DNA of 64,000 nucleotides, from the NCBI RefSeq assembly GCF_963676685.1, contig NC_092346.1, positions 101,246,001 to 101,310,000 on the forward strand. The letters run 5' to 3'. Of the stretch, positions 24,001 through 27,000 are shown piece by piece. The stretch is from Mytilus edulis. Lineage: Eukaryota. A program made the position numbers. Within the stretch, counting starts at the first letter, position 1, and the number at the start of each line of letters is the position of its first letter.

Positions 24001-27000
24001 GTGGTAGGTTTTTATTATAGACAAAATGACATAGAAATAAGTAAAATGGACATGCTGAAAATAGGTGAACATTGTATTGTATTTAAAAACTCAATGTATG
24101 ACATTATGTACATGTATGTCTAAATTTTCTCTTTCCCACATTACACGTGTTTCTGCTTTTTTTCACTATCTGTGAATTCTACCTTTATAGTTGTTTTTTT
24201 CTAGCTTTAATTCAAGTTTTTCCCAATAACATGTATTTCTACTTCTTTCCACTGGCTGTAAATTCTACTTTTATAGTTGTTTCTTCCTGCTTGAATTCAA
24301 GATTTCCTCTCCGCTTTCCTTTTATCAGAATTCTGTACAAGTAAAAAATGATAACTTTGAAATTAATGTTTTTGGATATTATCAAAATGTGCCAATGAAG
24401 TTGGCTTTTCGGTTCTTAAAGAGTTTTGTAGAATTGATACTTTGTAAAAAATCAAAATTCAATTCAGTTGAACTCTTAGGAGAATAAGTATGTACATTTA
24501 CAAAGCATATTGTGGCTTCAGGGTTGAGATCTCACAAAACATGTCGAAGGCCGTACGGTGACCTATAATTGTTTATTTCTGTGTCATTTGGTCTCTTGTT
24601 GAGAGTTGTCTCATTGGCAATCATACCACATCTTCTTTTTTATATCAAAATCTAAAGATATACCCATTGCATGATGTATAAAACTTATGCTATTCACCTT
24701 TAATTCTTTAAGACTTAAAAGATATACACGTCTTGTTGTATAATTCAACTAAAGAATCAATCAGTACACCTCTAACATCCAATGGATTTATTGAAAAGAC
24801 GTCATTAACAATCTGAGAAATACACGATGTTGTGCAATGCCAAAATGAAGGTTGTTGAAGGCCGTACGTTGATAGTTGTTAAATTATGTCGTTTGGTCAC
24901 TTGTGGAGACTTGACTATTGACATCATACCAAATCTTTTGATTTTTATGTGAAAAAAATGTAGTACATTTTATGATGATGAGTTAAATAGCAATAGTAAA
25001 TGGTTGGGCTTCAAATTATTGATAGCAACATTATTTTTTTATAACATATAACTTACAAACAAAGTATGATCCCTACAACACTAAAAGCTGCCCATATTAA
25101 AAATACCATGCCTCTGTAGACATCGACAGTCGCTTTATAGATACCATTCATTAGTAGTCCCCCAACAAGAGCACATAGGAGCTCTACTGCGGCAACACCG
25201 GCAAACACAGATCCTATTAGAAGAAATGGACATATATATATATATATAAATATGGTATGTTCTTAGAACACCTGTGTTGGTGAAATCATCATACCTAAAA
25301 CAAATGTGTATATCCACTAACAAACAGAAAATATATGACCAATCAAGAGACCAAATATAATAACGTGTTATAAAAAGATTTTCATTTAAAAAAGAAAGCT
25401 AAAAACAAAAGAAGTACTTCACAAGATATTCAAAACGTTTTGATATGCTTTTGTGTGTCAGTTTTCTGGCTTTCTTTATGTTGATACAAGTCGGGCAATA
25501 TTGATATTTTTTGAAATAAAGAAATATTTGTACAAACTTAAAAGTGACATTAAAATAAATCTGCTGACCTTGCTTATTAGCTGGTGTCATTCGAGACATT
25601 ATGCTCCTGGACATTGGCATGGTTACAATACAACCTAGACTGGCGGCAGCAGCTGAAATAGAAATATTGGCATGGTTACAATACAACCTGGACTAGCGAC
25701 AGCAGCTGAAATAGAAACATTGGCATGGTAACAATACAACCTAGACTGGCGGCAGCAGCTGAAATAGAAATATTGGCATGGTTACAATACAACCTAGACT
25801 GGCGGCAGCAGCTGAAATTGAAACATTGGAATGGTTACAATACAACCTAGACTGGCGGCAGCAGCTGAAATTGAAACATTGGAATGGTTACAATACAACC
25901 TAGACTGGCGGCAGCAGCTGAAATTGAAACATTGGAATGGTTACAATACAACCTAGACTGGCGGCAGCAGCTGAAATAGAAATATTGGCATGTTTACAAT
26001 ACAACCTAGACTGGCGACAGCAGCTGAAATAGAAATTTTGGCATGGTTACAATACAACCTAGACTGGTGGCAGCAGCTGAAATTAAAACATTGTCAACTT
26101 GTACAACTTGACTAACACACTTAGACTCTGCTCATTGTTGAAGGCCGTACGGTGATCTATAGTTGCTCATTTCTGAATCGTTTGGTCTCTTGTGGAGAGT
26201 TGTCTCAATAGAGATCATACCACATCTTCTTTTTTATATTTACAGAAAATACCAGTTACTTGCACTAAAAACAACAATGATCAGCAATATACATAAATTG
26301 TCTTTAAACAATCTTAAATAATAAATTAATGTGCAAGTGGCATTATTACGATACAATGCTATTAACTTGCATAATTGTTTTTTGGTTATAATATGAACTT
26401 CACATAACATATATTTAATATATACATCAATAGCTAATATAATCCTTATCTGGCGACGACAGCTTCGATACACATGACTTATCTTTTATGAACAAAATAA
26501 TTTGTTGAATATATACACATTACACTAGCAGAGACACAAAGACCGTGCATATTATATTTTATTTTTCCCCTAAGCAACGCCAATTTGAGTTCTTTATTAA
26601 AAGTCGACAGAGAAAACCCATTTTTAGTTGGGTAAATTGAGAAGAAAAATCAACTGACAGCTCAACATGACAAAAAAGAAAAAAAATCAACAGACAGACA
26701 GACAGACAATAGTACACAACAAACAACATAGAAACCCAAAGACTGAGAAACACGAACCCAACAAAACCTATCAAATCAAAAATTAAGAAAATAGCGATCT
26801 GGAAAATTATATCATGATAGCAATATCATCAGGAATTCTAAAGTAATGAAATAACGATAATTATAGTCATGATTATAAAATTATTTGTGACAATAATAAT
26901 ACAGATTGTACTTACACAAGTACATCATTAAGTCCGACTGTGCCAGGCCTTCCAGAATCAATGATGCTAATGTGGTGAAACAACCAGCTAAAGCTATCAC

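What the first reader, a model, noticed from the sequence alone, without database searches (positions are those of the whole stretch)
25611..26093. Nine tandem acceptors before gene B exon 2; only the last is productive; microhomology origin visible
The spliceosome meets eight upstream tttcag|CTG copies first. Using any of them shifts frame (53 nt) and runs into a stop, typically CTG CTG CCG CCA GTC TAG in the next unit. The single-copy intron sequence now sits 424 nt upstream of the productive AG. The unit boundaries coincide with a CAATGT microhomology shared by intron (26088-93) and exon (25611-16), which points to slippage or unequal exchange.
Basis: partly seen in the sequence, partly recalled or inferred. 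Interest (0 to 1): 0.7.

Follow-up and report, generated by a model that had tools for sequence, protein, structure and literature searches.

The report
Splice-junction minisatellite in a mussel transporter gene
A 53-base stretch spanning the end of an intron and the start of an exon in a mussel transporter gene has been copied nine times in a row, giving nine look-alike splice sites of which only the last gives a full protein; this kind of repeat is already known from amphioxus and from a human clotting-factor gene.

Summary
Window 25611-26093 holds 9.1 copies of a 53-bp unit (93% alike). On the minus strand each unit is 11 nt of intron 3' end (ttctatttcag) plus the first 42 nt of exon 2 of a PCFT/SLC46-like transporter gene of a Mytilus-like genome. 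All 8 of 8 upstream acceptors run into a stop (codon 24 in 7, codon 28 in 1). Only the last AG (25654-25653) gives the junction found in a 98%-identical annotated Mytilus protein. The CAATGT microhomology is confirmed.

The kind is known. Tandem repeats spanning an intron/exon boundary are called "mirages" in amphioxus (PMC3087553). The human F7 intron-7 VNTR is the donor-side version (PMC1557585). In both, the extra sites are reported to stay silent.

Two of the three other paralogues in the window carry the same kind of array. One has about 15 acceptor copies of a 102-bp unit before exon 2. Another has 57-59 donor copies of a 55-bp unit after exon 3.

Which acceptor is used in vivo, and whether a single-copy allele exists, could not be tested. 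I rate it a new member of a known kind, of moderate interest.

The parts
25611..26093 (-). 53-bp x 9.1 minisatellite. Each unit is 11 nt of intron-1 3' end (ttctatttcag) plus the first 42 nt of exon 2.
   Evidence: TRF; unit table; the unit matches exon 2 at 97.6% over 42 nt.
25653..25654 (-). Authentic (productive) acceptor AG of exon 2, in the last unit (U9).
   Evidence: The junction ...LMMYL|SAAASLGC... is present in the annotated Mytilus protein P0002.
25706..26078 (-). Eight upstream acceptor copies, with AGs at 26078-77, 26025-24, 25972-71, 25919-18, 25866-65, 25813-12, 25760-59 and 25707-06. All lead to a premature stop.
25611..25616 (-). Exon-side CAATGT microhomology. It lies inside exon 2, in the codons ...CCA ATG T..
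26088..26093 (-). Intron-side CAATGT microhomology, in single-copy intron sequence.
26093..26112 (.). 20-nt quasi-palindrome GTCAACTTGTACAACTTGAC (9 of 10 pairs) that abuts the array. It contains TTGAC, the candidate original branch site (A at 26094, 17 nt before the first AG).
   Evidence: Only 7 such 20-mers occur in the window. The branch-site role is inferred.
26916..28056 (-). Gene B exon 1 (ATG at 28056; ends in phase 1 with T; donor GTAAGT at 26915).
   Evidence: P0002 residues 1-380 match at 98.4% identity. Pfam MFS_1 at 8.4e-10.
25569..25652 (-). Gene B exon 2, 84 nt, phase 1 to 1. Its donor is GTCAGC, which departs from GTRAGT (consensus recalled, from no call).
   Evidence: It aligns to residues about 369-397 of chicken PCFT 7bc6.
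25057..25213 (-). Gene B exon 3, 157 nt.
24239..24332 (-). Gene B exon 4, including the stop codon.
33469..35005 (+). Context: paralogue P3 array with a 102-bp unit (about 44 nt of intron-1 3' end plus about 58 nt of exon 2). It has 15 acceptor-like copies. The last one (AG 34945-46) begins the real exon 2 (34947-35030).
   Evidence: The exon-2 junction is in the Mytilus protein P0007.
10178..14474 (-). Context: paralogue P1 array with a 55-bp unit (the last about 38 nt of exon 3 plus donor GTAAGT plus about 11 further nt of intron). It has 57-59 donor copies. The first one (GT 14432-31) ends the real exon 3 (14589-14433).

Best explanation
This is a 'mirage'-type minisatellite: a tandem array whose unit spans an intron/exon boundary. 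It sits in intron 1/exon 2 of an intact PCFT/SLC46A1/3-like MFS transporter gene of a Mytilus-like mussel.

Origin (inferred). A 53-bp segment ran from just after a CAATGT in the intron to the end of a CAATGT in exon 2. It was duplicated in tandem by slippage or microhomology-mediated repair. A hairpin-capable quasi-palindrome abutting the intron-side breakpoint may have helped. Unequal exchange or further slippage then raised the copy number to nine. The inner units were homogenised, since U4 equals U5 and U3 differs from them by 1 nt. The edge units drifted.

Consequence (shown on paper). The gene now has nine near-identical 3' splice sites 53 nt apart. Only the last is joined to the rest of exon 2, so only it gives the full protein. 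Each of the other eight gives a stop within 24-28 codons, upstream of two further exon junctions.

Use (inferred, not shown). I expect the last acceptor to be the one mainly used. It alone is followed by the unique 42-nt remainder of exon 2 and a donor 84 nt away, which favours it under exon definition. Each unit supplies a branch-like GTAAC about 23 nt before the next AG, plus a 13/18 pyrimidine tract, so the last site does not depend on the distant original branch site. Transcripts from upstream copies would be candidates for nonsense-mediated decay. On this reading the eight extra copies are in effect 424 nt of added intron.
For: - Array and nine acceptors.
- The unit is local sequence. Its exon-like part matches exon 2 at 97.6% over 42 nt. 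No other match outside the array reached E <= 0.001; the best were the paralogous exon 2 sequences at E 0.008 and 0.033.
- The exon-like part is ancestral coding sequence. It is conserved in the three paralogues and aligns to chicken PCFT.
- Gene model: exon 1 is 98.4% identical to P0002, named MFS transporter, PCFT/HCP family, SLC46 member 1/3 (name cut at '[My...'). P0002 carries exactly the last-acceptor junction and the exon 2/3 and 3/4 junctions.
- All four exons are open, with AG/GT borders.
- 8 of 8 upstream acceptors give stops.
- Unit pattern: differences to the consensus are 5, 3, 1, 2, 2, 2, 1, 4, 0 for U1-U9, and U4 equals U5.
- Microhomology. Abutting quasi-palindrome.
- No RNA structure hides the upstream sites (z = +2.42; 100 of 100 shuffles fold at least as well).
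- Precedents: amphioxus globin BflGb6 has 3-6 units of the intron 3' end plus the exon 2 5' part, with regular splicing by RT-PCR (PMC3087553, passages). The F7 IVS7 37-bp VNTR has 5-9 identical donors and only the authentic one is used (PMC1557585).
- The same kind of array occurs in paralogues P3 and P1.
Against: - There is no transcript evidence of any kind for this gene or this array. P0002 is a computed annotation, possibly from an assembly that lacks the array.
- The first acceptor keeps the original intron context, with a 5/5 branch consensus TTGAC 17 nt upstream (consensus yUnAy recalled). The other eight rely on a 4/5 GTAAC that is exon-derived. A strict 5'-to-3' AG scan from the original branch site would choose the first, unproductive copy.
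- The exon 2 donor GTCAGC is weak, which weakens the exon-definition argument.
- The amphioxus and human precedents come from other phyla. The human one concerns donors, not acceptors.
- The palindrome is a post hoc observation. Across all arrays, 1 of 50 array ends has one within 25 nt against 0.16 expected.
Confidence: 0.75

Rival explanations
1. Null or hypomorphic allele. The array diverts most splicing to upstream acceptors, or causes in-frame skipping of the 84-nt exon 2. Gene B on this haplotype would then make little functional protein. This would be tolerated because at least three paralogues lie within 30 kb.
For: - 8 of 9 acceptors are unproductive.
- The first copy has the best branch-site context, and the exon 2 donor is weak.
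- Four paralogues lie in the window.
- Local duplications touch exons in all four.
Against: - All four exons and all six splice borders are intact.
- The last unit equals the consensus (0 differences).
- Published mirages and the F7 VNTR are spliced normally.
Confidence: 0.15
2. Selected regulatory decoy. The acceptor array is kept because it tunes expression through unproductive splicing and decay, or because it stores exon-like units for new introns or micro-exons.
For: - Same-type arrays sit at the same junction in paralogues B and P3 with different units (53 and 102 bp), so they arose independently.
- 3 of 8 intragenic arrays span a junction, against 0.57 expected under a founding-unit model (Poisson P = 0.02).
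- Each unit carries AG|GT at nt 18/19 of its exon-like part. That is an 18-nt in-frame proto-exon (read).
Against: - Arrays cover 28% of the window. By coverage, junctions are not enriched in them (3 of 24; P = 0.97).
- No conservation data could be obtained.
- The internal donor GTTGTA is very weak.
- The P = 0.02 rests on four related genes and a simple model.
Confidence: 0.06
3. Assembly artefact or a satellite carried by a mobile element. Either the copy number or the array itself is an assembly error, or the repeat arrived with a Helentron- or MITE-type element, as described for bivalve satellites.
For: - Bivalve genomes carry many short satellite-like arrays on mobile elements (PMC7492417 and PMC3879986, search listing and abstract starts only).
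- The window is 28% tandem repeat.
Against: - The nine units carry distinct variants in an ordered pattern, in a 483-bp array.
- The unit is the local intron/exon sequence. It has no other match in the window at E <= 0.001, only weak ones to the paralogous exon 2 sequences at E 0.008 and 0.033.
- There is no terminal structure apart from one palindrome.
Confidence: 0.04

Closest known systems
Amphioxus 'mirage' minisatellites (Adh3, TnC, PGBD5, globin BflGb6/BflGb9)
   Same: - They are tandem, minisatellite-size units that span an intron/exon boundary.
- BflGb6 repeats the 3' end of an intron plus the 5' part of exon 2, which is exactly the geometry here.
- There are several copies of the AG, and the authentic copy sits at the array edge.
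- Inner units are homogenised and edge units diverge.
- Sources: PMC3087553 passages and PMC3902484 passage.
   Different: - The phylum differs (mollusc, not cephalochordate).
- The unit is 53 bp, against 150-160 bp in BflGb6 and 10-72 bp in Adh3.
- There are nine copies, against 3-6.
- Here three arrays sit in one paralogue cluster, one of them with 57-59 donors.
- Regular splicing and length instability were shown for amphioxus and are untested here.
- The founding paper (Canestro et al. 2002) was not held. I know it only from the reference list.
Human F7 intron-7 37-bp VNTR
   Same: A minisatellite whose first unit spans an exon/intron boundary, giving 5-9 identical splice sites. Only the one joined to the exon is used physiologically (PMC1557585, abstract and Discussion). 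It is the direct analogue of the P1 array in this window.
   Different: It duplicates the donor (5') site, not the acceptor. Its mechanism is 5'-to-3' scanning that picks the first site. Applied naively to acceptors, that rule would pick the unproductive first copy here.
[quoted passage not shown]
   Same: A tandem duplication that includes a splice signal leaves the protein unchanged if the outer sites are used. The duplicated exon piece becomes intron. Unspliced variants may be degraded (PMC2891723 passages; PMC3265369 search listing and abstract start only).
   Different: Those cases create a new intron from an exonic AGGT. Here an existing intron is lengthened by 424 nt, and no new intron position arises.
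NAGNAG and other tandem acceptors (recalled, not checked in a call)
   Same: Several AGs compete for one exon.
   Different: Their spacing is 3 nt and in frame, so they share one branch site and tract. Here the spacing is 53 nt, each copy has its own tract, and the products are out of frame or stopped.

Membership tests
Mirage minisatellite (tandem repeat spanning an exon/intron boundary) | Head-to-tail repeats with a unit of minisatellite size | tested here: met
   Period 53, 9.1 copies, 93% matches, no indels.
Mirage minisatellite (tandem repeat spanning an exon/intron boundary) | The unit contains both intron and exon sequence of the adjacent junction, so the splice signal is repeated | tested here: met
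   The unit is 11 nt of intron (ttctatttcag) plus 42 nt identical or near-identical to the exon 2 start. The exon identity is confirmed by P0002 and the paralogues.
Mirage minisatellite (tandem repeat spanning an exon/intron boundary) | The authentic copy lies at the array edge, continuous with the rest of the exon | tested here: met
   U9 (25663-25611) runs on into the unique part of exon 2 and its donor at 25568.
Mirage minisatellite (tandem repeat spanning an exon/intron boundary) | Regular splicing is not disturbed (RT-PCR in amphioxus) | not testable with these tools
   No transcript data were available. Cluster members that might include spliced forms could not be listed.
Mirage minisatellite (tandem repeat spanning an exon/intron boundary) | Copy-number polymorphism or instability between haplotypes | not testable with these tools
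   No eukaryotic genome collection was open. Protein searches with the ORFs over the arrays found nothing.
PCFT/SLC46 branch of the major facilitator superfamily (the host gene) | MFS fold signature and closest similarity to SLC46A1/A3 | tested here: met
   - Pfam MFS_1 at 38.5 bits, above the 33.4 cut-off.
- Named relatives are SLC46A1/3 and SLC46A3-like.
- The only PDB match is the proton-coupled folate transporter 7bc6, at E = 5.4e-34 over residues 77-455.
NAGNAG-type tandem acceptors | Acceptor AGs 3 nt apart giving in-frame isoforms | tested here: not met
   The spacing is 53 nt, and 8 of 8 alternative products are stopped.
Satellite carried by a mobile element (Helentron or MITE type) | Unit unrelated to the host gene, dispersed copies, terminal element sequences | tested here: not met
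   Within this window the unit matches only the adjacent exon and, weakly, the paralogous exon 2 sequences. The rest of the genome could not be searched.

The most novel reading that the evidence does not exclude
Splice junctions of this mussel gene family may be preferred sites for minisatellite birth or retention. Three of the four clustered SLC46-like paralogues carry arrays of junction copies: 9 acceptors, about 15 acceptors and 57-59 donors. The fourth has a stray exon 2 copy. The two acceptor arrays arose independently at the same junction, with different units. If this reflects a junction-targeted mutational process, or selection for decoy splice sites that set transcript output through decay and seed new introns or micro-exons, then mirages would be a general metazoan route of intron growth and gene tuning rather than an amphioxus curiosity.
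Probability: 0.12. Interest if true: 0.7.

Novelty: new member of a known kind. Interest (0 to 1): 0.45.

Why it matters
The array is a natural competition experiment. Nine near-identical 3' splice sites lie 53 nt apart, each with its own tract and a branch-like motif. Only the most distal one is productive, and the first one keeps the original branch site.

Measuring which site is used would test two ideas against each other at acceptors: exon definition, and scanning from the branch site. The F7 VNTR served the same purpose for donors.

The neighbouring paralogues supply matched cases, one acceptor array with a different unit and one very long donor array. If junction-spanning arrays prove common in mussels, two things follow. 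They would document intron lengthening by tandem duplication in a second phylum. They would also warn annotators, because gene predictors can stop at such introns. One Mytilus edulis database protein for paralogue P3 (P0008) ends in intron-1 read-through. Whether the array caused that is unknown.

Tried and rejected
- Alleles or orthologues of the array. A protein search with the 97-aa ORF over exon 2 and intron 2 found no candidate. A search with the 271-aa ORF inside the P3 array scored 8000 candidates, none with E <= 0.001.
Spliced or mis-spliced members hidden in the 90% clusters therefore stayed unseen.
- The C-termini of 20 fetched relatives (of the 24 hits) were read. The short ones (385-411 aa) end in exon-1 read-through. 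None ends in array sequence.
- Rfam found 0 matches in the window.
- RNA structure that might mask the upstream acceptors was rejected (z = +2.42).
- Enrichment of junctions in arrays by coverage was rejected (3 of 24; P = 0.97).
- A shared breakpoint motif between arrays was considered. Gene B and P3 both break after AATGT, but P1 does not, and the upstream border of the P3 array is truncated. I did not pursue it.
- Palindromes as a general feature of array ends were rejected (1 of 50 ends).
- Gene conversion from P3 array units into the real exon 2 was considered, because P0007 differs from the window at 3 of 29 residues. Retention of the ancestral state explains this more simply.
- Molluscan precedents. 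Searches listed none. The one mollusc paper with the right words (abalone TSSK1-like, PMC6905558) describes a purely intronic 27-bp minisatellite.
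Full report
**1. What is in the sequence**

The window has no N and is 66% A+T. Tandem Repeats Finder reports an array at exactly 25611-26093, with period 53, 9.1 copies, 93% matches and no indels. Read on the minus strand, every unit contains tttcag|CTGCTG. That 12-mer occurs 9 times in the window, all inside the array and 53 nt apart. The chance expectation is 0.02, and 0 of 100 shuffles reached 9 (layout). The hexamer CAATGT (acattg on the plus strand) lies at both ends, at 25611-16 and 26088-93.

**2. The host gene**

The window holds four long open exons that belong to one family. 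Three of the four match Pfam MFS_1 at E <= 0.01, and gene B scores 38.5 bits against a cut-off of 33.4.

I searched the model exon by exon.
- Exon 1 of gene B (28056-26917, minus strand) found 24 relatives.
- The best named relative is P0002 (491 aa, 98% identity), an [quoted passage not shown]. The name is cut there.
- Other named hits are SLC46A3-like proteins of Mytilus galloprovincialis and M. trossulus, and unnamed products of M. edulis and M. coruscus. The DNA is therefore mussel, not human.

Aligning the database proteins back to the window, together with the border sequences, gives this model for gene B:
- exon 1: 28056-26916 (phase 1, donor GTAAGT)
- exon 2: 25652-25569 (84 nt, donor GTCAGC)
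- exon 3: 25213-25057
- exon 4: 24332-24239

P0002 reads ...LMMYL|SAAASLGCIVTMPMSRSIMSRMTPANKQG|SVFAG... That is the junction made by the last of the nine acceptors. P0002 matches one solved structure, the proton-coupled folate transporter 7bc6 (E = 5.4e-34). The exon 2 residues lie in a conserved stretch of that alignment.

**3. Anatomy of the array**

Each unit is 11 nt of intron 3' end plus the first 42 nt of exon 2.
- Differences from the consensus, U1 to U9, are 5, 3, 1, 2, 2, 2, 1, 4, 0.
- U4 and U5 are identical, and U3 differs from them by one base.
- The last unit, which is the real exon start, equals the consensus.
- The first unit keeps the original intron upstream, including a TTGAC 17 nt before its AG.
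- The other eight acceptors have a GTAAC about 23 nt upstream. This motif comes from the exon codons ATT GTA ACC of the preceding unit. It is changed to GTAAAC before U3 and GTTAC before U8.
- The pyrimidine tract is 13 of 18 in seven copies, including the last. It is 11 of 18 before U1 and 12 of 18 before U2.

The branch-site readings are my inference from the recalled yUnAy consensus. They are not a measurement.

In the phase set by exon 1, all 8 upstream acceptors reach a stop. It falls at codon 24 in 7 of them and at codon 28 in 1. Two of the eight add a multiple of 3 (159 and 318 nt) and still stop. Each such stop lies upstream of two further exon junctions, so these transcripts would be candidates for nonsense-mediated decay (inference).

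The array RNA folds worse than its shuffles (z = +2.42). Structure therefore does not hide the upstream sites.

**4. Origin**

The unit matches only the adjacent exon and, weakly, the paralogous exon 2 sequences elsewhere in the window. The exon-like part is conserved coding sequence in the paralogues and in chicken PCFT. So the array derives from the gene, not the gene from the array.

A single-copy ancestor would have read intron-CAATGT, then 47 nt, then CAATGT-exon. A 6-nt identity at the borders of the duplicated segment is what slippage or microhomology-mediated repair leaves.

A 20-nt quasi-palindrome (9 of 10 pairs) begins at the very base where the array ends on the intron side (26093-26112). 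It is one of only 7 such 20-mers in 64 kb. A stalled-fork hairpin is a plausible helper.

Growth from two copies to nine by unequal exchange is inferred from the homogenised centre and the divergent edges. The same pattern is described for amphioxus.

**5. Surroundings: the array is not a one-off**

Tandem arrays cover 17,958 of 64,000 bases, or 28%. Of 22 arrays tested, 3 match exon sequence at E <= 0.001, and each matches only its own neighbouring exon.
- **Paralogue P3** (plus strand) has a 102-bp unit made of about 44 nt of intron 1 plus about 58 nt of exon 2. It has 15 acceptor-like copies: 14 by the pattern plus the variant at 34174 seen. The last copy begins the real exon 2 at 34947.
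- **Paralogue P1** (minus strand) has a 55-bp unit made of the end of exon 3 plus the donor GTAAGT. It has 57 full (TGTTGGTAAGT) or 59 core (GGTAAG) donor copies. The first ends the real exon 3, and reading on gives an immediate stop.
- **Paralogue P4** has a second, degenerate copy of 73 nt of exon 2 (84% identity) lying 478 nt downstream, with no splice borders.

The enrichment tests point in different directions.
- By coverage, junctions are not enriched in arrays (3 of 24; P = 0.97).
- Under a model in which each of the 8 intragenic arrays started from one unit at a random place, 0.57 junction-spanning arrays are expected and 3 are seen (Poisson P = 0.02).
- That is suggestive at best, because the four genes are related and share one neighbourhood.

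The gene B and P3 arrays have different units and different breakpoints. They are also far younger than the paralogues, which are about 52% identical in exon 1. They therefore arose independently.

**6. Comparison with what is known**

Tandem repeats spanning an intron/exon boundary are described in amphioxus under the name "mirages".
- Adh3 units are 10-72 bp.
- RT-PCR suggests that regular splicing is not disturbed.
- The arrays vary in length.
- Sources: PMC3087553, passages, and PMC3902484, one passage. The founding paper was not held.

The human F7 gene has a 37-bp VNTR whose first unit spans the exon 7 donor. It carries 5-9 identical donors, and only the most upstream is used (PMC1557585, abstract and Discussion). 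This is the counterpart of the P1 array.

The idea that tandem duplication of a splice signal makes or lengthens introns without changing the protein is long-standing (PMC2891723, passages; PMC3265369, listing only).

I found no molluscan case in four searches. The one candidate I read was a purely intronic minisatellite. These searches are narrow, and the supplements were closed.

**7. Verdict**

The expectation of a mis-splicing ladder is untested and runs against the precedents. The acceptor geometry here, with the best branch site before the first copy and a weak exon 2 donor, nevertheless leaves real room for leakage.

I file the array as a new member of a known kind: a mirage-type junction minisatellite, here in a mussel. 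Its recurrence within one paralogue cluster is the notable extra.

Three things stayed unchecked:
- transcripts of gene B
- allelic or orthologous copy number
- the frequency of such arrays in the rest of the genome

Noticed in passing
window 33469-35005 (+), exon 2 at 34947-35030: Paralogue P3 carries a 102-bp array of intron-1 3' end plus exon-2 5' part, with 15 acceptor-like copies, the last productive. The upstream edge of the array starts inside an exon-like piece, not at an intron piece, so the array has been truncated or rearranged there.
   Followed up: partly
window 10178-14474 (-), exon 3 at 14433-14589: Paralogue P1 carries a 55-bp array (77 copies by TRF) of exon-3 3' end plus donor GTAAGT, with 57-59 donor copies. 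It fills most of the intron 3 sequence next to exon 3. Exon 4 lies at 8496-8412.
   Followed up: partly
window 9847-10120: Just beyond the P1 donor array there is a degenerate 35/70-bp repeat. Its translation weakly recalls the same exon-3 end (YAVVDIVLC, E = 17). It may be an older, decayed generation of the array.
   Followed up: no
window 45319-45391 (-): Paralogue P4 has a second copy of 73 nt of exon 2, 84% identical, lying 478 nt downstream of the real exon 2 (45880-45797). It has no AG or GT borders and sits inside intron 2.
   Followed up: partly
window 24132-24305: An 85-86-bp tandem duplication (79-81% identity) covers the end of gene B exon 4, its stop codon and the start of the 3' UTR. 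A second ...TTIKVEFT.SEKK-like reading lies at 24200-24156.
   Followed up: partly
window 26093-26112: A 20-nt quasi-palindrome (9 of 10 pairs) abuts the intron-side end of the gene B array. It is one of 7 such 20-mers in the window.
   Followed up: yes
window 25635-25652 and the same offset in every unit (-): The exon-like part of each unit carries AG|GT at nt 18/19 (CTAG|GTTGTA). Acceptor to this site is 18 nt and in frame, so it is a possible micro-exon, though its donor is very weak.
   Followed up: no
window 33408-33458: A 9-nt perfect inverted repeat (ACCACGATC ... GATCGTGGT, 33 nt apart) lies just before the start of the P3 array. Its meaning is unknown.
   Followed up: no
window 3826-7862, 22261-23044, 48210-49616, 49709-51013: Large arrays (110 bp x 36.5, 69 bp x 11, 33 bp x 42.6, and 32-98 bp units) show no match to any exon of the four genes. 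Together with the others they make 28% of the window tandem repeat.
   Followed up: partly
database protein P0008 (M. edulis, 401 aa) compared with window 31934-33112: The annotated M. edulis protein for paralogue P3 ends in read-through of intron 1 (...MMYIGMYY). The gene model therefore stops at the intron that, in this window, holds the acceptor array.
   Followed up: no
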